Positions 1 to 5,734 of a DNA stretch of 64,000 nucleotides are shown here, piece after piece. A program made the position numbers and the translations under genes. Under the pieces are notes generated by a model. That model saw only the letters and a program-made list of their open reading frames with translations, made no database searches and was not told the origin of the DNA. Numbering within the stretch: position 1 is the first letter of the stretch; each line of letters opens with the position of its first letter. This stretch comes from Escherichia coli (GTDB lineage Bacteria > Pseudomonadota > Gammaproteobacteria > Enterobacterales > Enterobacteriaceae), in the NCBI RefSeq assembly GCF_965641715.1, contig NZ_OZ282453.1; one strand, 5' to 3'.

Positions 1-596
1 TAGGGGTAACCTGTAGGGATGTACCACCCACCTTAAAATAAAGGGGTAAAATCGCTTAGAATGCGTTACAGAGCGTCTGAGAAGCCATATTCACAGATTT
101 TACTAAAACCTCAGACTTCTAAGTGGTCTTTTTAACAGGAGGGTTCTTTCTCATGTATCACCCTCTCTTCCCGCCAAGTAAGCTACACAGACCTAGAGAA
201 TATGCCTTCACAGCATCTATATCAGGTCAGATTTAGAGGTCTTGATAGAATCTTCAAAGGTACTTGACAGATAACTATGAAGTTGTTAGGAAGGGGTGTT
301 TAACGGGGGAAGAGATACGATATAACCCGAAGGGGAGAGTATCATCTTAACAGTGATTGTAAGAGTAAAACTGAAAAGATACTTAACAGAACTACCAAGA
401 GGGAGCGATAAGACCAGAGGTAGTGACCTGTTAAACAGTTCGTTTCAAAGCTCTTAAGAGTCTGTTAAGTAAGGTCATGTGAACAATCATATCATTTTGT
501 CAATGCTTTTGTCTTTGACCTAAATCAATAAAATGTATCGTTTGATGTGCTTTTAAACAAAATAGTTAAAAATCTTTTTAGAGGGGCGCTTCGCTT

Positions 597-1265
597 GTGT
601 CACATCCAATAATCCATATCGGTCGTTATCATGGTGGTTCTGATGACTGGCGTACACCGTATCGTCTATTTCATAACCTGCATCGTGAGTATAGCTTCAG
701 TCTAGATGGCGCTGCAACTGAGCATGACGCATTGTTGCCACGGTTCACCGATGATATAAACCGTCAATCATGGGTTGGTGAACGGGTCTTCGTTAACCCG
801 CCGTTTAGCATGGCTGAACAGTTCCTCGCAAAAGCCCCTGAAGCTGATGTGTGTGTATGTCTGGTTCCGCACAGGTCAAAGACAACTTACTGGCTTCGGT
901 GTGTATATACAAACCCCTTCCTGCATGAGATTCGAACATTACACCGAGCGGTTAAATACCTTCCACCAGCAGGAAAGAGAGGTGTTGTAGCGCGTTCACC
1001 ATTTGCAAGCTGTGTTTTGATATACAGGAACACACCCCGTAAACCGAAGGTTGAAATTACCCAGACAATCTATTGTGGCGACACAATGCTTTTACTTGCC
1101 GTGGTTAATAGGGGTGGTTTACGTGGAAGACCTCATATACACGATGCACAGACGCTTGACAGGTTGATTAAAATGCATGACCAAGGGCAATCCGTCAAGA
1201 GTATCGCAGAATCGCTAAGAATGCCTCTAAGCACCACTTACAGGATTGTTCAAAGGTTGAGCTAA
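597..1265 (+). CDS. Phage Dam-family DNA N6-adenine methyltransferase with C-terminal HTH-like segment
   Basis: GTG start with GAGGGG RBS about 11 nt upstream; WRTP...GERVFVNPPFS motif typical of phage Dam-type MTases; C-terminal QSVKSIAESLRMPLSTTYRIVQRL resembles an HTH. Confidence 0.6.
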   Translation: MSHPIIHIGRYHGGSDDWRTPYRLFHNLHREYSFSLDGAATEHDALLPRFTDDINRQSWVGERVFVNPPFSMAEQFLAKAPEADVCVCLVPHRSKTTYWLRCVYTNPFLHEIRTLHRAVKYLPPAGKRGVVARSPFASCVLIYRNTPRKPKVEITQTIYCGDTMLLLAVVNRGGLRGRPHIHDAQTLDRLIKMHDQGQSVKSIAESLRMPLSTTYRIVQRLS

Positions 1266-1300
1266 AATTCTCATATAGAGCACTGATTATGAGAATGTTA

Positions 1301-1333
1301 AAGAGGCGATTTCCCCTTTCTGGGGTTATTCGC
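1301..1333 (+). repeat. About 30-nt element containing CCCCTTTCTGGGG hairpin followed by T-run (copy 1); possible MTase terminator
   Basis: aagaggcgatttcccctttctggggttattcgcttttt; a near copy occurs at 1521..1552. Confidence 0.4.
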
Positions 1334-1520
1334 TTTTTACTGGAAGGGTTATTTTACAGAGGTTTTTCAAACCCCCTCAATAATAAAAAACGAGCAACAA
1401 ACGAAGAGCGAGAAATAAAATATTGAGACTGGTGAACGGGGTCTGTAAAGATTGTTTAAGAAGTCGGTTTAGGGATTGGTAGATGATTCGGATGAAGCAT
1501 CCTCATAACAATACCAATTA

Positions 1521-1552
1521 GAAGGTGGCTCTCCCTTTCTGGGGATATCGCC
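1521..1552 (+). repeat. About 30-nt element containing CCCTTTCTGGGG hairpin (copy 2)
   Basis: gaaggtggctctccctttctggggatatcgcc, similar to 1301..1333. Confidence 0.4.
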
Positions 1553-1575
1553 TTGTATCTTAGTGAGTCCAGGAA

Positions 1576-1760
1576 GTTCTCTGTGAAGGGACTTGTCAGT
1601 CCTTTATATTGGCTAATTACAACTTATTGAAAAATAAGCATTTTTAGAAATCACTGTTAAGGTTACAGAGTTCTCTGTGAAGAGACTCGTCAGCTCTCTA
1701 TATTGGCTAATTACAACTCATTGAAAAATAAGCATTTTTAGAAATTGCTGTCAGAGAGGT
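1576..1760. repeat. Tandem direct repeat, 2 copies of about 94 bp (about 90 percent identical)
   Basis: gttctctgtgaag(g/a)gact(t/c)gtcag...tattggctaattacaac...ttgaaaaataagcatttttagaaat occurs at 1576 and again at 1670. Confidence 0.8.
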
Positions 1761-1833
1761 GAGTACTTGATAGATACAGCTTTCCGGTTCTGTCAAGATA
1801 TTTTTTAATAGATAGCACAAAATGCTAAAGATA

Positions 1834-1863
1834 CCCCTATACCATCACGTACAGGGGGTTTTG
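1834..1863 (+). terminator. Hairpin plus T-run (intrinsic terminator-like), between repeat region and minus-strand small genes
   Basis: cccctataccatcacgtacaggggg followed by ttttg. Confidence 0.35.
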
Positions 1864-1871
1864 AAGGGAGT

Positions 1872-2060
1872 TTAACGGGGTTCTGTGTGGTTATCTGTTC
1901 TGGTCCTGTCCTTGAGGTCAAATGACCATTCACGACCAAACAATCTGAACACGATAAACACCCGAACGATGAAATAGCGGAGCAGAAGACCTGCAATCAG
2001 CCCAACACCTCCACCAGCCCATACATCAGGTGACCCCAGCTCAGGAGGGAGATTTACCAT
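1872..2060 (-). CDS. Small predicted membrane protein (62 aa), unknown function
   Basis: Internal ATG with AGGAA RBS; single hydrophobic helix WAGGGVGLIAGLLLRYFIVRVFIVF; start overlaps the stop of the upstream 34-aa ORF (TAATG). Confidence 0.35.
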   Translation of the reverse strand: MVNLPPELGSPDVWAGGGVGLIAGLLLRYFIVRVFIVFRLFGREWSFDLKDRTRTDNHTEPR

Positions 2061-2164
2061 TAAATTTCCTGTGTGCAATGCAATACCATGTGACATACAT
2101 AGTTGATTCGGTTAGTTGGGCTTGTACCAACCCCTATCGAATAAACCTCATAGCCACGCTTCAT
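2060..2164 (-). CDS. Small ORF (34 aa) translationally coupled to the 62-aa membrane protein
   Basis: ATG preceded by GAGGGGGAA RBS immediately downstream of a minus-strand promoter; MKRGYEVYSIGVGTSPTNRINYVCHMVLHCTQEI. Confidence 0.25.
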   Translation of the reverse strand: MKRGYEVYSIGVGTSPTNRINYVCHMVLHCTQEI

Positions 2165-2186
2165 ATTTCCCCCTCTCTCATAAACC

Positions 2187-2216
2187 ATTATACCACAAAT
2201 GTTACGAAATTGTTAA
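2187..2216 (-). promoter_or_regulatory. Sigma70-like promoter (TTAACA, 18 nt spacer, TATAAT) on minus strand
   Basis: Reverse complement reads ttaacaatttcgtaacatttgtggtataat; drives the 34-aa and 62-aa ORFs. Confidence 0.45.
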
Positions 2217-2222
2217 AAATAC

Positions 2223-2251
2223 TTGACATTAGTCTTTGAAAATGCTAGTAT
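2223..2251 (+). promoter_or_regulatory. Sigma70-like promoter (TTGACA, 17 nt spacer, TAGTAT) on plus strand
   Basis: ttgacattagtctttgaaaatgctagtat, about 50 nt upstream of the 2300 operon; back to back with the minus-strand promoter. Confidence 0.45.
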
Positions 2252-2299
2252 TGTATATAAGTTAACAGAGAATTAACAATTATAAGGACTAGCTTATGA

Positions 2300-2857
2300 A
2301 TGAACGACAGAGAATTTAGAGCGATGCTTCAGGCATCGAGACAACGTAACAGATACAACTCCTACAGCTACACAGACACCCCCACCAGCTACGAACTACC
2401 CAAGCTCACCAGAGCAGAACGCAAAGGCCTTGATGAATTAATTCGTAGCATTACGCCACGAGATAGATTTATGCCAACCAGAAAGAGCACGAAGAACACT
2501 ATTAAAAATTATCTGGCTAACTTTGACAGCTACGAACAATTACCAAGTAAGCTTGATGATGTAATTATCGGATTCTGTAGAAGTGAAGGTCACCCGAAAT
2601 ACAACAAAAAACTATTTTATCTTCTAAAGAATCTTGACGAAATTAACTCAGCCACCGTGACAAATCATCTTCAGCGTCAAGCAACCAGACTTAGCCATGA
2701 ATTACCAAGCGATAAATATTGCGCTTTGCTTGCTGTAATGTGCGCAAAGTTAATTGGTGTTGTTGAGCATCATATTGCCGTTGGAAATATTGAGCCAATG
2801 GAAAACGAGCAACCAGATTTCGAGTTTGACCCGTATTTAGTTACAGAGGAATTTTAA
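2300..2857 (+). CDS. Hypothetical phage protein (185 aa)
   Basis: ORF with AAGGA RBS; first gene of a coupled operon; no recognisable motif. Confidence 0.5.
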   Translation: MNDREFRAMLQASRQRNRYNSYSYTDTPTSYELPKLTRAERKGLDELIRSITPRDRFMPTRKSTKNTIKNYLANFDSYEQLPSKLDDVIIGFCRSEGHPKYNKKLFYLLKNLDEINSATVTNHLQRQATRLSHELPSDKYCALLAVMCAKLIGVVEHHIAVGNIEPMENEQPDFEFDPYLVTEEF

Positions 2858-3136
2858 ATGAAGAAACACACTTTGACCCGTATTTCAGAAGAAGCCTTTC
2901 ACGAGCTTACCCGAATTAAACAGACAACTAACCTCCCTCATCAAACTGTTATGCAGCTTGCAATTGCTAAAGAGGTTACTGAGTCGGATTTACTGAAATA
3001 TCCAGTCTCTAAAGGTCGTAAGCACATCCGAATTACTCAGGACGCTTTAGATACTTTGAAGGCACTTAACAACTTTAAAATTGATATCGCCCGACTATTG
3101 AGTATTAAGATTCACAAGTTAGCAATGGGGGTTTAA
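2858..3136 (+). CDS. Hypothetical protein (92 aa), possible ribbon-helix-helix DNA-binding fold
   Basis: ATG directly after upstream stop; N-terminal HTLTRISEEAFHELTRIKQ...QTVMQLAIAKEV fits a strand-helix-helix pattern (inference). Confidence 0.4.
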   Translation: MKKHTLTRISEEAFHELTRIKQTTNLPHQTVMQLAIAKEVTESDLLKYPVSKGRKHIRITQDALDTLKALNNFKIDIARLLSIKIHKLAMGV

Positions 3137-3351
3137 TGCTATGCGTTACCTTTGAATACCACACGGATAAAATGATTCGCTACATCTCCGACCTCCTGAT
3201 TGAAGGAAACGGATTCGGTGACATCCATAACTCAAAAGATATTTTCATTAAAGCCATTGGCCCAAATGAAGTACTGAAAACAGCAGTTAAACCGGAATGG
3301 TTTGAGCGTCACAAGATTGAATTAGGTTATTGGGGTGAGGAGGTTTTATGA
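3136..3351 (+). CDS. Hypothetical protein (71 aa)
   Basis: TAATG overlap with upstream gene; no recognisable motif. Confidence 0.4.
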   Translation: MLCVTFEYHTDKMIRYISDLLIEGNGFGDIHNSKDIFIKAIGPNEVLKTAVKPEWFERHKIELGYWGEEVL

Positions 3352-3635
3352 AACCTTGGCATGAAGATGTTAGACGATATTTTACAGAACACCTTATCTA
3401 TGATGAATCCAGTGATTCCCTGTGCTGGTCTGATGGAGAGTCAGTCACGATAAACACCGACGACTACGGCAACAAAACATTTAATATAGGCCGATATACT
3501 TTCTACGTGAAATATGTTGTCTGGTTCCTTTATCATGGCTATCAATCCAACAAGCAAATTATCCATCGAAATGGTAACAGAGCCGATACCAGACCAAAAA
3601 ATCTTATGCAAGTCCGAGACTTTAAGAGAAATTAG
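3348..3635 (+). CDS. Small HNH-family endonuclease (95 aa)
   Basis: ATGA overlap with upstream gene, GAGGAGG RBS; motif IHRNGNRADTRPKNL resembles the HNH_3-type H-x-NGN-x-D-x-R-x-x-NL signature. Confidence 0.55.
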   Translation: MKPWHEDVRRYFTEHLIYDESSDSLCWSDGESVTINTDDYGNKTFNIGRYTFYVKYVVWFLYHGYQSNKQIIHRNGNRADTRPKNLMQVRDFKRN

Positions 3636-3642
3636 AAAAACA

Positions 3643-3766
3643 GCTTCTCAGACGCTCTCAATCGCATTCTAACGCAAAAAACTATCTTATTTTAGGGTGG
3701 GTAATACCACTGTACAGGCTACCCCTGAAAAAGACTGTTTAGCTCGTTACAGAGCGATTGAGGAGG
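3643..3766. promoter_or_regulatory. Inverted pair of operator-like 10-bp-periodic motifs flanking about 75 bp upstream of the 3792 gene
   Basis: 3643..3672 (minus orientation) reads ttagaatgcgattgagagcgtctgagaagc; 3745..3766 reads cgttacagagcgattgaggagg; both are related to 56..85. Confidence 0.4.
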
Positions 3767-3791
3767 TCTGGTAAAAAGGAGATTTTAAGAA

Positions 3792-4121
3792 ATGAGAGAA
3801 TTAAACTTCCCACTACAGATTTTTATTGATACCGACACCGCCATGATGATTCAGGCTTTCACTGATGTAGGTGTTAGCATTGACTTTGATAAGTTGTTAG
3901 AGTTAATGACTGATAATGCGGAAAGCATCTCTGACTTTATTCAGTCGGTGGAGTTTAACGAGCCTCGAATGATGCTACCAATTAAAGACAGCAACATGAA
4001 AAGATTGGTTATCGAGCAAACGAACAAATTCAGCGTTAGCCCTGAAAAATATCTCAAGGCGGCTATAGCAATTTTGTACGCTGACAATATTTTGGTGACG
4101 GATTCGAAGGTGGTGCATTAA
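3792..4121 (+). CDS. Hypothetical acidic protein (109 aa)
   Basis: AAGGAG RBS; no recognisable motif. Confidence 0.5.
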   Translation: MRELNFPLQIFIDTDTAMMIQAFTDVGVSIDFDKLLELMTDNAESISDFIQSVEFNEPRMMLPIKDSNMKRLVIEQTNKFSVSPEKYLKAAIAILYADNILVTDSKVVH

Positions 4122-4186
4122 TGGAATTGGTGATTATCTGTTTTGTATTGATTGGTATGATTGCAGGTGCATCTATTAAAGTATAA
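4121..4186 (+). CDS. Tiny hydrophobic peptide (21 aa, MELVIICFVLIGMIAGASIKV), translationally coupled
   Basis: ATG overlaps TAA of upstream gene (TAATG); entirely hydrophobic single-helix peptide. Confidence 0.25.
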   Translation: MELVIICFVLIGMIAGASIKV

Positions 4187-4211
4187 ATGTTACCAATCTG
4201 TTAAAAATCTG

Positions 4212-4240
4212 TTGACAAATAACCTTGAGCATGACATAAT
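4212..4240 (+). promoter_or_regulatory. Near-consensus sigma70 promoter (TTGACA, 17 nt spacer, CATAAT)
   Basis: ttgacaaataaccttgagcatgacataat. Confidence 0.55.
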
Positions 4241-4246
4241 TGTATA

Positions 4247-4503
4247 TATATGAGGATAGTCTTCTATCCGAAGTCTATAGGGAGAGCAATTCTCCTTGAA
4301 TTAAAATATTAATCATCTCTACATCAATGATAACTATATTCTGAGTTGGTGAGGTATGTTCTATACCGAACATTCTGAAAGGTGCAATGCTTTTCGTCAT
4401 GGCCTTTCAGTTTAGTCTGAGAGGCTATCTCAAAAAGTGCTTAATCATTCATTCATTGAATCCTTTACAGCTTTGCCCTAATCATGAGTTAGGGCGTTTC
4501 TTT
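4247..4503 (+). ncRNA. Candidate small RNA or structured leader (about 255 nt) from promoter to first intrinsic terminator
   Basis: No ORF of 60 aa or more in about 460 nt; several stable hairpins (4254..4269, 4356..4373); ends at terminator 4475..4503. Confidence 0.3.
4475..4503 (+). terminator. Intrinsic terminator (7-bp GC-containing stem plus T-run)
   Basis: gccctaatcatgagttagggc then gtttcttt. Confidence 0.5.
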
Positions 4504-4574
4504 AAGAGTTTTAAGCAGAGCTTTTAAAGAAAGTTTTTCCTGAAACTTCGTTAACGTTATAAAGCAAACCTTCA

Positions 4575-4610
4575 AAGCCCTTCACAGATTCAATGTTTAG
4601 GGCTTTTCTT
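4575..4610 (+). terminator. Second hairpin plus T-run (terminator-like)
   Basis: aagcccttcacagattcaatgtttagggctt then ttctt. Confidence 0.4.
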
Positions 4611-4707
4611 AATAGAGCATCTTTAATAAATCGTTAAGTCATCTTCTAAGTGTATTGGCGTTGAAGGTGCTCTGTTAAGAAATAAACCACACTTAGAGGA
4701 AGTTATA

Positions 4708-5418
4708 ATGACAAACGATTTATATATTAACGGTAAAAAGGTTGATAGCTTCGGTGACTGGTCGCCACAGACTGAACATCCAGCTATCACTATTCAGCGC
4801 AAAGAACACGATGAAAGAATTGCACTTGAGCAAGAAATCCGAATGTCACCAAAGGTAATTTCCTTTGTGGCTCCTGAGCCTCAAGATATGCCGGATATTT
4901 GCAAAACTGAAGCATTGCTTGAGCTTGAAAAGAAATTTTACCCAGCTTTAAAAGCACAGCGTCTTAAACTAGATGACGCTTACAGTAAAGTTACCCTGAT
5001 GCAATCAGCTATTGAGCCATCAGAATTTGAGATTCAGGATGAATTGTCACAGAAACCATTTGTCTATTACCAATATGAAGACAATGATGGTTTTGGTACT
5101 TTTCCTGAGAATATCCCAGACGTGATTAATAATCCGATGGATGGATATCGAATTGTGAAGATGGTTAAGGCATCAAGAGGTGCTGGTCAGTTTATTTACA
5201 TGACTAATAAGAGCGATGAAGAACTCGCTGAACTTGCTAGACAGAACATCTTGGCATCACGTAACAAGCAGCTTGATAATGTTAAGTTGTATCTCTCAAG
5301 AGAGCTTCAGGCTATGAAAGACCTTGTGAAAGAATATGAAGATGCTAAGAAGATTGCTATGCAAGCCGATATTGAGCAGTTAGTGAAGATTTCTAGCAAA
5401 TATGCAAAGGCTATTTAA
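4708..5418 (+). CDS. Hypothetical phage protein (236 aa), charged with coiled-coil-like C-terminus
   Basis: GAGGAAG RBS; first gene of a co-directional module ending at 8794. Confidence 0.5.
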   Translation: MTNDLYINGKKVDSFGDWSPQTEHPAITIQRKEHDERIALEQEIRMSPKVISFVAPEPQDMPDICKTEALLELEKKFYPALKAQRLKLDDAYSKVTLMQSAIEPSEFEIQDELSQKPFVYYQYEDNDGFGTFPENIPDVINNPMDGYRIVKMVKASRGAGQFIYMTNKSDEELAELARQNILASRNKQLDNVKLYLSRELQAMKDLVKEYEDAKKIAMQADIEQLVKISSKYAKAI

Positions 5419-5437
5419 TTATGATGTGAGGTGAAGA

Positions 5438-5653
5438 ATGATTGATTTAACTGAACGCTATGAAGTTATTAAGTCTGTTTGTGAGAACTTAAAGCTTCAG
5501 ACTAAACCAAAGCTACGAATTAAAAATCAGCATCAAGTTATCACCTCACACAAACCAAAGGTTAGAAGGATTCCTTCATGGTGTATTGACCGTGTTCCTG
5601 CTGATGCTCAATTAATTGGTGAGTCTGGTTCTTACACTTATATCCTTCATTAA
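5438..5653 (+). CDS. Hypothetical phage protein (71 aa)
   Basis: GAGGTGAAG RBS; immediately upstream of the tape-measure-like gene. Confidence 0.45.
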   Translation: MIDLTERYEVIKSVCENLKLQTKPKLRIKNQHQVITSHKPKVRRIPSWCIDRVPADAQLIGESGSYTYILH

Positions 5654-5734
5654 AAATTACAAAGGGGAGAGATTAGCCTTAATTGGTTAGTCTTTCCCTT
5701 TTTCGTATATGAACACTTAAGAGGTGAAACATGA

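What the first reader, a model, noticed from the sequence alone, without database searches (positions are those of the whole stretch)
1266..1560. Duplicated 30-nt hairpin element flanking an ORF-free stretch
Near-identical elements containing a CCCTTTCTGGGG hairpin preceded by a GAGG-type purine tract occur at 1301..1333 and 1521..1552. The first could terminate the methyltransferase gene, but the duplication 220 bp away suggests a repeated regulatory or processing signal.
Basis: seen in the sequence. Interest (0 to 1): 0.35.

Follow-up and report, generated by a model that had tools for sequence, protein, structure and literature searches.

The report
Paired terminator hairpins shared with Felixounavirus
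The two look-alike hairpins are real and most likely transcription stop signals, but the same hairpin also sits next to the end-repeat of Felix O1-like phages, which marks the surrounding 11-kb E. coli island as a possible parasite of those phages.

Summary
Two same-strand hairpins, H1 (1301-1338) and H2 (1522-1554), share an exact 12-nt core. Overall they are only 71% identical, not near-identical.

- **Structure:** each has a CCC(C)/GGG(G) inner stem and a purine-rich/U-rich outer stem.
- **Copy number:** a structure model built from H1 alone finds only H1 and H2 in the 64-kb window.
- **Conservation:** H1 follows the methyltransferase stop in all 8 gene-carrying relatives with separate hairpins. 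H2 is in all 16 relatives with separate hairpins, in three sequence types with compensatory stem changes.
- **Recombination:** a 17th relative (L010) has an H1/H2 fusion with the interval deleted.

The best reading is paralogous Rho-independent terminators. H2 is the ancestral end of the unit, in front of a convergent small gene. H1 travels with the methyltransferase cassette.

The surprise is the context.

- **Same hairpin in phages:** it occurs once per Felixounavirus genome, 265 nt outside the 581-bp terminal repeat.
- **The island:** it has a large serine recombinase and lies next to wrbA. It shares its tape-measure gene, the gene after it (74-76% aa) and repeat-like DNA blocks with these phages.
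- **Mini-hairpin:** the 49-nt insertion between H1 and H2 is 98-100% identical to copies in three such phages.

A satellite-like island is plausible but untested.

The parts
597..1265 (+). DNA N6-adenine methyltransferase with a C-terminal resolvase-type HTH. This is the gene that H1 follows. It is present or absent as a cassette among relatives.
   Evidence: Pfam Dam PF05869 (E 5.7e-13) and HTH_7; phrog_111. Absent, together with H1, from L011, L012 and L014-L019.
1267..1296 (+). A+T-rich stem-loop straight after the stop codon (ATTCTCATA...TATGAGAAT).
   Evidence: Inverted repeat I13. Folded together with H1 it gives -27.1 kcal/mol, z -4.3. Some relatives have a mismatch in it.
1301..1338 (+). 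Hairpin 1 (H1). Two-tier stem-loop AAGAGGCGA/UCGCUUUUU around CCCC-UUUCU-GGGG, ending in a run of five U.
   Evidence: Fold -18.3 kcal/mol on the + strand versus -11.5 on the - strand. Conserved in all 8 MTase-carrying relatives with separate hairpins. 96% identical over 26 nt to the phage EC6 hairpin.
1423..1466 (+). Conserved block between the hairpins (GTGAAC...CTGTAAAGAT...GTTTAAGAAGTCGG). It includes GGTCTGTAAAGAT, also found in Felixounavirus non-coding DNA, and the first copy of a 13-nt GTTAAGAAGGTCG-type tandem repeat.
   Evidence: Alignment of divergent relatives. Exact 13-nt match to L001, L002 and L013. No sigma-70 consensus hit on the + strand.
1473..1521 (+). 49-nt mini-hairpin insertion. 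It is GGATTGGTA[26-nt inner hairpin GATGATTCGGATGAAGCATCCTCATA]ACAATACCAATTAG, placed after TTAG (1469-1472).
   Evidence: 98-100% identical to phages NBEco004/005 and 94-96% to EC106. Present, short (23 nt) or absent among relatives, at several sites and in both orientations.
1522..1563 (+). Hairpin 2 (H2). Two-tier stem-loop AAGGUGG/UCGCCUU around UCCCU-UUCU-GGGGA, with the tail GUAUCUUAG.
   Evidence: Fold -16.4 kcal/mol on + versus -11.3 on -. Present in all 16 relatives with separate hairpins, in three sequence types. Second-best hit of the H1 model in the window.
1575..1751 (+). Two tandem copies of a 94-nt unit (83 nt aligned, 90% identical). Each contains the small hairpin CTTATTGAAAAATAAG. 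Relatives have one or two copies.
   Evidence: Family D1; copy-number differences in L004, L009 and L012.
1834..1857 (-). Terminator-like hairpin of the convergent small gene.
   Evidence: The only hit of the terminator scan in 1-3000.
1872..2096 (-). Convergent small ORF (up to 74 aa, with a hydrophobic segment). Transcription passing H2 would run antisense into it.
   Evidence: ORF list. Annotated as a 58-62-aa hypothetical protein in L004, L007 and L009. No family hit.
5735..8794 (+). Tape-measure gene (5735-7864) and the Dit-like gene after it (8000-8794). Both are homologous to the same adjacent gene pair of Felixounavirus. These are context that ties the island to those phages.
   Evidence: All 25 listed TMP hits are Felixounavirus-type phages, at 30-32% identity, E 2e-49 to 1e-62. 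The Dit-like protein is 74-76% identical over its full length. Pfam TMP_3 and Dit_like.
8814..10457 (-). Large serine recombinase at the right end of the island, next to wrbA (10509-11114).
   Evidence: phrog_95 integrase E 2e-78; the wrbA-like ORF right after it. Relatives are inserted in yecE.

Best explanation
H1 and H2 are two paralogous copies of one conserved hairpin family. They most likely act in the + strand RNA as Rho-independent (intrinsic) terminators.

- **H2** is the ancestral copy. It closes the leftward non-coding and methyltransferase transcription unit, about 280 nt before the 3' end of a convergent small gene. It would stop sense transcription from running antisense into that gene.
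- **H1** belongs to the methyltransferase cassette and ends that gene.
- **A side effect:** the two copies share a 16-nt core in direct orientation, so they also serve as a substrate for recombination that deletes the interval between them.
- **Origin:** the family was not invented here. It is homologous to a single-copy hairpin in the convergent non-coding region of Felixounavirus genomes, next to the terminal repeat.

**Shown:** the structure, its conservation, the compensatory changes, the strand bias, the copy number, the fusion variant and the phage homology.

**Inferred:** that transcripts actually end at these hairpins.
For: 1. **Terminator anatomy.** H1 has a G+C-rich stem base (GCGA/UCGC), UUUUU straight after it, and an upstream A-rich tract that pairs with the U run. 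It starts 36 nt after the MTase stop.
2. **Structure is kept while sequence changes.** Outer stems are AAGAGGCGA/UCGCUUUUU (H1), AAGGUGG/UCGCCUU (H2 type A), AGGAGC/GCUCUU (type B), GCCC/GGGC and GGCCA/UGGCU (phage types). All fold the same way.
3. **Covariation on the model-fitted alignment A7.**
   - 94.4% of cells pair, against 85.9% in shuffles (0/500).
   - 7 of 13 pairs have double-sided changes (2/500).
   - Slid controls pair at only 37-59%.
4. **Strand bias.** There are 43 G.U cells against 4 A.C cells, and the + strand fold is 5-7 kcal/mol more stable for H1 and H2 type A. So the + strand is the folding strand.
5. **Loop sequences vary** (UUUCU, UGUCU, UCUCU, UUUC). This argues for a structural role rather than a sequence-specific one.
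6. **Same layout in island and phage.** In both, the hairpin faces a convergent gene that has its own terminator on the other strand. In the window that is 1857-1834. In Felix O1 it is t23.
7. **Distribution among relatives.** H1 is in all 8 MTase-carrying relatives with separate hairpins, and H2 is in all 16 relatives with separate hairpins.
8. **The fusion.** L010 carries an exact H1-left/H2-right hybrid.
Against: - **Weak U-tracts.** H2's tail is interrupted (UUGUAUCUU). In H2 types B and C it is poor (UCUUCUCCCGCUU), and their stability shows no strand preference.
- **Atypical stem.** It is interrupted by an asymmetric internal loop, and the simple terminator scan reports neither hairpin.
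- **No promoter found.** No sigma-70-like promoter lies between H1 and H2 on the + strand, so H2 would only be a back-up terminator.
- **Phage copy does not behave like a generic terminator.** It is unique in the genome and lies about 1.5 kb downstream of the nearest same-strand gene, which has its own terminator.
- **Tandem repeats abut the hairpin.** 13-nt repeats in the island and GTTATAGAGC repeats in the phage sit on its 5' side. That looks more like a protein-binding DNA site.
- **Alignment bias and missing data.** The covariation alignment was fitted to the model's structure. No transcript data were available.
Confidence: 0.55

Rival explanations
1. The hairpins are part of a DNA-level (or coupled transcription/DNA) cis module copied from the Felixounavirus terminal region. 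The module would be the hairpin, the short tandem repeats beside it and the repeat-like blocks. A phage protein would recognise it for replication, concatemer processing or packaging. The island would use it to be handled by an infecting Felixounavirus.
For: - The hairpin occurs once per phage genome, in the convergent non-coding region. In phage D4 it lies 265 nt outside the 581-bp terminal repeat.
- All but one of the other short blocks shared by island and phage non-coding DNA map inside that terminal repeat.
- Tandem short repeats of variable copy number abut the hairpin in both.
- The island carries Felixounavirus tail-gene homologues and a serine recombinase.
- From my own recollection, not checked here: T7-type phages need a pause or termination signal and a hairpin-forming region near the concatemer junction for packaging.
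Against: - The hairpin lies outside the repeat, not at its boundary.
- The strong G.U over A.C bias fits RNA better than duplex or cruciform DNA.
- Loop and stem sequences drift freely, so there is no invariant recognition sequence apart from CCC/GGG and UUAU.
- No terminase cut site or origin has been mapped in these phages in the papers read.
- The island has two copies where the phage has one.
Confidence: 0.2
2. The hairpins are RNA elements other than terminators. They could be a binding or processing site (for example for RNase III or a phage or island RNA-binding protein) or a 3' stabiliser. They would set the stability or processing of the methyltransferase mRNA and of the non-coding RNA between them.
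For: - The conserved asymmetric internal loop (UUAU on the 3' side) and the CCC/GGG inner stem are nearly invariant across island and phage copies, while the outer stems change.
- H2 types B and C lack a good U-tract.
- The folding strand is the + strand.
Against: - No Rfam family matches the region even at E up to 10.
- Loops vary in sequence and length.
- H1 and both phage types have textbook U-rich tails.
- No candidate RNA-binding protein was identified in the island.
Confidence: 0.12
3. The duplication has no function of its own. H1 would be a by-product of the illegitimate or homologous recombination that moved the methyltransferase cassette in or out next to a pre-existing hairpin. Only one copy, or neither, would matter.
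For: - MTase-less relatives have only H2.
- The L010 fusion shows that the copies recombine and that the interval is dispensable.
- The two copies share only a 16-nt core.
Against: - H1 is kept intact in all 8 MTase-carrying relatives with separate hairpins. One of them has a C-to-U change that keeps the pair as G.U.
- H1 has the best terminator anatomy of the whole family.
- H1 resembles phage type ii (96% over 26 nt) more than it resembles H2. So it is not a simple local copy of H2.
Confidence: 0.1

Closest known systems
Rho-independent (intrinsic) terminators of enterobacteria and their phages, including those with an upstream A-tract
   Same: A G+C-rich stem base directly followed by a U-rich tail. 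An upstream purine or A tract can pair with the U run. The hairpin sits after a gene and in front of a convergent gene. Structure is conserved while sequence drifts.
   Different: The stem is two-tiered with a conserved asymmetric internal loop. H2 has an interrupted or weak U-tract. The family is shared between a chromosomal island and one unique site in a virulent phage genome, rather than being a generic gene-end signal.
PeSL (promoter-early stem-loop) mobile regulatory cassettes of T4-type phages
   Same: Repeated stem-loops flank a variable gene cassette. Recombination between the copies gains or loses the cassette or the interval (L010 fusion; MTase presence or absence).
   Different: No early promoter is attached to the hairpins. 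There are only two copies, not dozens. The repeat is 16 nt of identity, not a roughly 50-nt conserved promoter-plus-stem-loop.
Concatemer-junction signals of T7-type terminal-repeat phages, i.e. a pause or termination site and a hairpin-forming region near the repeat
   Same: A terminator-like element lies close to a short exact terminal repeat in a phage that packages unit-length DNA.
   Different: Felixounavirus uses the host RNA polymerase (PMC3185647). The hairpin is 265 nt outside the repeat. No functional data exist.
PLE of Vibrio cholerae, a satellite of the virulent myovirus ICP1 (abstracts of PMC9410903 and PMC9638900, listed; details from my own recollection). This comparison is for the surrounding island.
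   Same: A roughly 11-18-kb chromosomal island with a large serine recombinase, long repeat-rich non-coding regions and a specific link to one virulent myovirus lineage.
   Different: No replication gene, capsid-remodelling gene or helper-triggered excision is known here. This island carries helper-like tail genes, which PLE does not. Nothing has been tested experimentally.
REP/BIME and MITE-type small palindromic repeats. This comparison is for the 49-nt mini-hairpin.
   Same: A tiny hairpin-forming unit that is present or absent at several sites, in both orientations, always after (T)TAG and ending in TTAG or TTAAG.
   Different: It is 23 or 49 nt long, with 1-3 copies per genome, and is confined to this island family and a few Felixounavirus genomes. 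No transposase has been linked to it.

Membership tests
Rho-independent terminator | Stable G+C-rich stem-loop in the transcribed strand | tested here: met
   H1 folds at -18.3 and H2 at -16.4 kcal/mol on the + strand, with z -3.1 and -2.3. All variants fold alike. Covariation supports the stems.
Rho-independent terminator | U-rich tract immediately 3' of the stem | tested here: inconclusive
   H1 has UUUUU. The phage types have UUAUAUUUA and UUUUAUUUA. H2 type A has UUGUAUCUU. H2 types B and C have UCUUCUCCCGCUU, which is poor.
Rho-independent terminator | Lies downstream of, and in the same orientation as, a transcription unit | tested here: met
   H1 starts 36 nt after the MTase stop and H2 starts 257 nt after it, on the same strand. 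In the phage, the hairpin faces the gene 40-24 transcripton.
Rho-independent terminator | RNA 3' ends map to the U-tract, with reduced read-through | not testable with these tools
   No transcript data are available. This needs Term-seq, 3' RACE or a reporter assay.
Dispersed repeated palindromes (REP/BIME, MITE) - for H1 and H2 | Many dispersed copies per genome | tested here: not met
   Two copies in 64 kb by pattern search and by covariance model. One copy in the 86-kb EC6 genome.
PeSL-like recombination cassettes | Repeats flank variable genes, and recombination between them is seen | tested here: met
   L010 carries the H1/H2 fusion with the interval deleted. The MTase and H1 are present or absent together.
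PeSL-like recombination cassettes | Conserved promoter attached to each stem-loop | tested here: not met
   No + strand promoter-like site lies next to either hairpin.
Phage packaging or terminal cis site | Lies at or in the terminal repeat of the phage | tested here: inconclusive
   In phage D4 the repeat is 581 bp, and the hairpin lies 265 nt outside it. The other shared blocks lie inside the repeat.
Phage packaging or terminal cis site | Needed for, or cut during, packaging | not testable with these tools
   Needs genetics or biochemistry.
Phage satellite (PLE- or PICI-like) - for the island | Integrated element of about 10-18 kb with its own integrase, lacking a full set of virion genes | tested here: met
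   A serine recombinase. The only virion-type genes are the TMP and the Dit-like gene. The span is about 11.5 kb, judged from L003 and L004.
Phage satellite (PLE- or PICI-like) - for the island | Specific sequence link to a helper phage | tested here: met
   TMP at 30-32% and the Dit-like protein at 74-76% aa identity to Felixounavirus. Repeat-like blocks and the hairpin are shared. A shared 49-nt insertion is 98-100% identical.
Phage satellite (PLE- or PICI-like) - for the island | Helper-dependent excision, replication and packaging | not testable with these tools
   Needs infection experiments. No paper in the library links Felixounavirus to any satellite or island.

The most novel reading that the evidence does not exclude
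The hairpins, the tandem 13-nt repeats beside H2, the terminal-repeat-like blocks and the shared mini-hairpin would together form a cis-acting module borrowed from the terminal region of Felixounavirus. The roughly 11.5-kb serine-recombinase island that carries them, along with helper-like tape-measure and baseplate genes, would be a PLE-like satellite or parasite of these virulent E. coli/Salmonella myoviruses. Through this module the island would be transcribed, replicated or packaged by the infecting phage.
Probability: 0.2. Interest if true: 0.8.

Novelty: new member of a known kind. Interest (0 to 1): 0.5.

Why it matters
Taken alone, the two hairpins are ordinary gene-end signals. They show how a duplicated terminator can drive small deletions and cassette turnover.

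They matter more as a marker. The same hairpin marks a single site next to the terminal repeat of Felix O1-like phages, which are widely used for Salmonella and E. coli typing and biocontrol. It therefore exposed an unannotated island family, with DNA matches in about 8-9% of complete E. coli genomes. That family shares tail genes, terminal-repeat-like DNA and a recently exchanged 49-nt insertion with those phages.

If the island interferes with these phages or rides on them, two things follow. It would be a new satellite or defence type for a virulent coliphage group. It would also bear on phage-therapy host range.

Tried and rejected
- **Known RNA families.** An Rfam scan of 1-3000 at E up to 10 gave only two chance-level hits, neither in the hairpins. 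No tRNA or tmRNA lies nearby.
- **Coding potential.** The 45-aa ORF over H1 is frameshifted in relatives. A 12-codon reading frame through H2 is not kept between H2 types A and B, whose lengths differ by 2 nt.
- **Dispersed repeat or MITE reading of H1 and H2.** Rejected on copy number.
- **Plasmid origin.** No plasmid match.
- **MAFFT alignments for pair counting.** Alignments of all hairpin types (A1-A4) put the outer stems out of register. RNAalifold on A1 gave only 5 pairs. I therefore used a covariance-model alignment (A7) and single-sequence folds. A3 contained artificially padded sequences and was not used for any claim.
- **Convergent small genes.** The one in the window and the one in the phage are not homologous.
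- **Terminal repeat position.** Phage Z31's record has no end duplication. Phage D4's record has one.
- **sigma-70 promoter between H1 and H2.** None on the + strand. A TTGAGA-18-AAAGAT candidate seen by eye is weak.
- **A conserved TTTCAAA-loop hairpin at 1357-1378.** It pairs in some relatives but not in L016 and L017, so I dropped it.
- **Literature.** Searches for a Felixounavirus satellite or island found nothing.

Full report
**1. The observation**

The window holds exactly two copies of CCCTTTCTGGGG, at 1314-1325 and 1533-1544, both on the + strand. The repeat finder extends them to 16 nt at 15/16 (family D11). Each copy is the centre of a two-tier hairpin.

- H1 is 1301-1338: AAGAGGCGA-UUU-CCCC-UUUCU-GGGG-UUAU-UCGCUUUUU. 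Its energy is -18.3 kcal/mol.
- H2 is 1522-1554: AAGGUGG-CUC-UCCCU-UUCU-GGGGA-UA-UCGCCUU. Its energy is -16.4 kcal/mol.

It pairs with the U-rich 3' arm.

Over 38 aligned columns the two copies are 27/38 identical. So they are near-identical only in the core.

I built a covariance model from H1 homologues alone and ran it with filters off over all 64 kb, both strands. H1 scores 82 bits and H2 scores 16.3 bits (E 0.12). Everything else is noise.

The stretch between them is effectively ORF-free.
- Its 45-aa ORF is frameshifted in relatives.
- No relative carries an annotated feature under 1266-1870, apart from one weak partial hit (H121).

**2. Where the window comes from**

Positions 1 to about 10,500 belong to an integrated island, not to a free phage. 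The gene order is as follows.

| Position | Feature |
|---|---|
| 1-596 | Repeat-rich non-coding DNA |
| 597-1265 | N6-adenine methyltransferase with a resolvase-type HTH |
| 1266-2299 | The non-coding gap studied here |
| 2300-5418 | Several unknown genes and a small HNH endonuclease |
| 5735-7864 | Tape-measure protein |
| 8000-8794 | Dit-like tail protein |
| 8814-10457 (-) | Large serine recombinase |
| 10509-11114 | wrbA |

The rest of the window is ordinary E. coli-type chromosome (agp, cbpA, torC and torT).

Parts of window 1-4000 match 508 of 5,426 complete E. coli genomes, and 22 genomes cover at least 80% of it. The 1266-1870 stretch matches 439 genomes. There is no match on plasmids. 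In the two relatives examined in full, the island is inserted in yecE. The window starts about 1,070 nt inside the island.

**3. Conservation of the hairpins**

I compared 11 E. coli loci, 4 IMG/VR loci and 2 E. albertii contigs.

- H1 follows the methyltransferase stop in all 8 relatives that carry the gene and have separate hairpins. Its loop is UUUCU or UGUCU.
- Relatives without the gene also lack H1.
- H2 is in all 16 relatives with separate hairpins. It comes in three sequence types (A, B, C) whose outer stems differ but still pair.
- The 17th relative, L010, has a hybrid hairpin made of the left half of H1 and the right half of H2. The interval is gone. So the two copies recombine.

So H2 is the universal copy, and H1 travels with the methyltransferase cassette.

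**4. Structure and strand**

On the model-fitted alignment A7 (26 hits, 22 distinct rows):
- 94.4% of cells form standard pairs, against 85.9% in shuffles (0 of 500 reach it);
- 7 of 13 pairs show changes on both sides (2 of 500);
- sliding the partners by 1-3 columns drops pairing to 37-59%.

The alignment was fitted to the structure, so these numbers lean towards it. The single-sequence folds agree independently.

Stem cells contain 43 G.U wobbles against 4 A.C. H1 and H2 type A are 5-7 kcal/mol more stable on the + strand. The + strand, most simply as RNA, is what folds.

**5. The same hairpin in Felixounavirus**

The only nucleotide match of window 1-4000 to the phage collection was a piece of about 54 nt (roughly 1468-1523). 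It is 98-100% identical to NBEco004 and NBEco005, and 94-96% identical to EC106.

Reading those loci showed a homologous hairpin next to it. The surrounding 261 nt of EC106 matches 251 phage records, nearly all Felixounavirus-type. Two hairpin types occur.
- Type i is GCCC-UU-CCC-UUUC-GGG-UUAU-GGGC-UUAUAUUUA.
- Type ii is GGCCA-U-CCCC-UUUCU-GGGG-UUAU-UGGCU-UUUAUUUA.

Type ii matches H1 at 25 of 26 positions. The one mismatch in that stretch is the 3' half of a compensatory G:C to C:G swap.

In the complete EC6 genome the family occurs once, at 31.4 bits. It lies in the non-coding region between convergent transcription units. According to the Felix O1 paper, those units are genes 1-23 and genes 40-24 (PMC3185647).

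Phage D4's record carries an exact 581-bp terminal repeat at both ends. The hairpin lies 265 nt outside the right-hand copy.

**6. What the hairpins most likely do**

The anatomy fits Rho-independent terminators acting in the + strand RNA. The supporting points are:
- a G+C-rich stem base with a U-rich tail directly after it, and an A-rich tract before it;
- position after a gene;
- loops that vary while the structure is kept;
- the strand bias;
- the shared layout, in which the hairpin faces a convergent gene that has its own opposite-strand terminator. In the window that terminator is at 1857-1834, for the small ORF 2096-1872.

I put this reading at about 0.55.

The weak points are these.
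- H2's U-tract is interrupted. It is poor in types B and C.
- The stem has an internal loop, and the simple terminator scan reports neither hairpin.
- No + strand promoter lies between H1 and H2.
- The phage copy is unique and sits far from any same-strand gene.
- Short tandem repeats of variable copy number abut the hairpin in both island and phage.

These points keep a DNA-level or packaging-linked role alive, at about 0.2. A non-terminator RNA role and a functionless by-product each stand near 0.1.

**7. The wider context**

The island is tied to Felixounavirus in four independent ways.
1. All 25 listed phage hits of its tape-measure protein are Felixounavirus-type phages, at 30-32% identity and E 2e-49 to 1e-62.
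2. The next gene is 74-76% identical over its full length to the phage gene that follows the tape measure.
3. All but one of the other short blocks shared by island and phage non-coding DNA map inside the phage terminal repeat.
4. The 49-nt mini-hairpin between H1 and H2 is 98-100% identical to a copy inside the terminal repeat of NBEco005. That implies recent DNA exchange.

No other island protein matches the EC6 genome. No paper in the searchable library links Felixounavirus to a satellite or island.

A PLE-like satellite, or a tail-interference defence island, is a reasonable hypothesis. Nothing here tests mobilisation.

**8. The mini-hairpin**

Its sequence is GGATTGGTA-ACAA-TACCAATTAG (23 nt). 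It can carry a 26-nt inner hairpin inserted after GGTA, which gives 49 nt.

It is present, short or absent at homologous sites. It also occurs at several different sites and in both orientations, always after (T)TAG and ending in TTAG or TTAAG.

The long form is in 188 of 5,426 E. coli genomes, at 1-3 copies each, always on the chromosome. It is in one IMG/VR contig. It behaves like a very small mobile insertion. How it moves is unknown.

**9. Verdict**

The finding is real. Its core interpretation, a terminator plus a second related signal, is largely right. The hairpins themselves are a new member of a known kind. The interest lies in what they point to.

Noticed in passing
window 1-10457 (island); tape measure 5735-7864, Dit-like 8000-8794, recombinase 8814-10457: The window begins inside an island of about 11.5 kb with a serine recombinase, next to wrbA (relatives sit in yecE). 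Its tape-measure gene and the gene after it are homologous to the same gene pair of Felixounavirus (30-32% and 74-76% aa). Its non-coding DNA shares blocks with the phage's 581-bp terminal repeat. It is a candidate satellite or defence island for a virulent coliphage group, and no paper was found.
   Followed up: partly
window 1473-1521; also L003 6005-6050 and 6850-6877, L019 3250-3275, L001 257-311, L002 1777-1800 and 2504-2554: A 23-nt hairpin unit (GGATTGGTAACAATACCAATTAG), optionally carrying a 26-nt inner hairpin. It is present or absent at several sites and in both orientations, always after (T)TAG. The window copy is 98-100% identical to the copies in phages NBEco004 and NBEco005. It looks like a tiny mobile insertion.
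   Followed up: partly
window 1575-1751: Two tandem 94-nt units (90% identical), each with a small A+T-rich hairpin (CTTATTGAAAAATAAG). Relatives have one or two units. Function unknown.
   Followed up: no
window 1454-1530; L018 1020-1063; L019 3160-3220: A 13-nt unit, GGTTAAGAAGGTC-like, is repeated 2-4 times directly upstream of H2, and the last copy forms H2's 5' arm. In Felixounavirus a different 10-nt unit (GTTATAGAGC, about ten copies in phiWec172) occupies the same position beside the hairpin.
   Followed up: partly
window 49-91: A 43-nt stretch is about 91% identical to a non-coding site a few hundred bases from the record start of many T5-like Salmonella phages (S113, SE24, rokbiter and others). 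The match was found with the L003 homologue.
   Followed up: no
window 1872-2096 (- strand), promoter-like site 2216-2187 (-), divergent promoter-like site 2223-2251 (+): A convergent small ORF with a hydrophobic segment, its own terminator (1857-1834) and a near-consensus promoter. It matches no family. Transcription past H2 would be antisense to it.
   Followed up: no
L010 (E. coli O177:H21) 831-877: A hybrid hairpin, H1 left half plus H2 right half, with the 170-219-bp interval deleted. It has the most stable stem of all variants (-22 kcal/mol).
   Followed up: yes
window 597-1265 compared with L011, L012, L014-L019: The methyltransferase-HTH gene is missing from many relatives. L014 and L017 keep what looks like its first 15-20 nt, which suggests loss rather than gain. 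A different hairpin (TCTCTCCCGTTAAGAGGGGAG) sits at the H1 position.
   Followed up: partly
window 238-469 and 2200-2279: TTAACAG/CTGTTAA-type motifs and blocks of 17-32 nt (up to 49 nt in the L003 and L014 homologues) match the Felixounavirus terminal repeat, which is itself packed with CTTGTTA/CTGTTAAGA motifs. One block lies between the divergent promoter-like sites and the start of the 2300 operon.
   Followed up: partly
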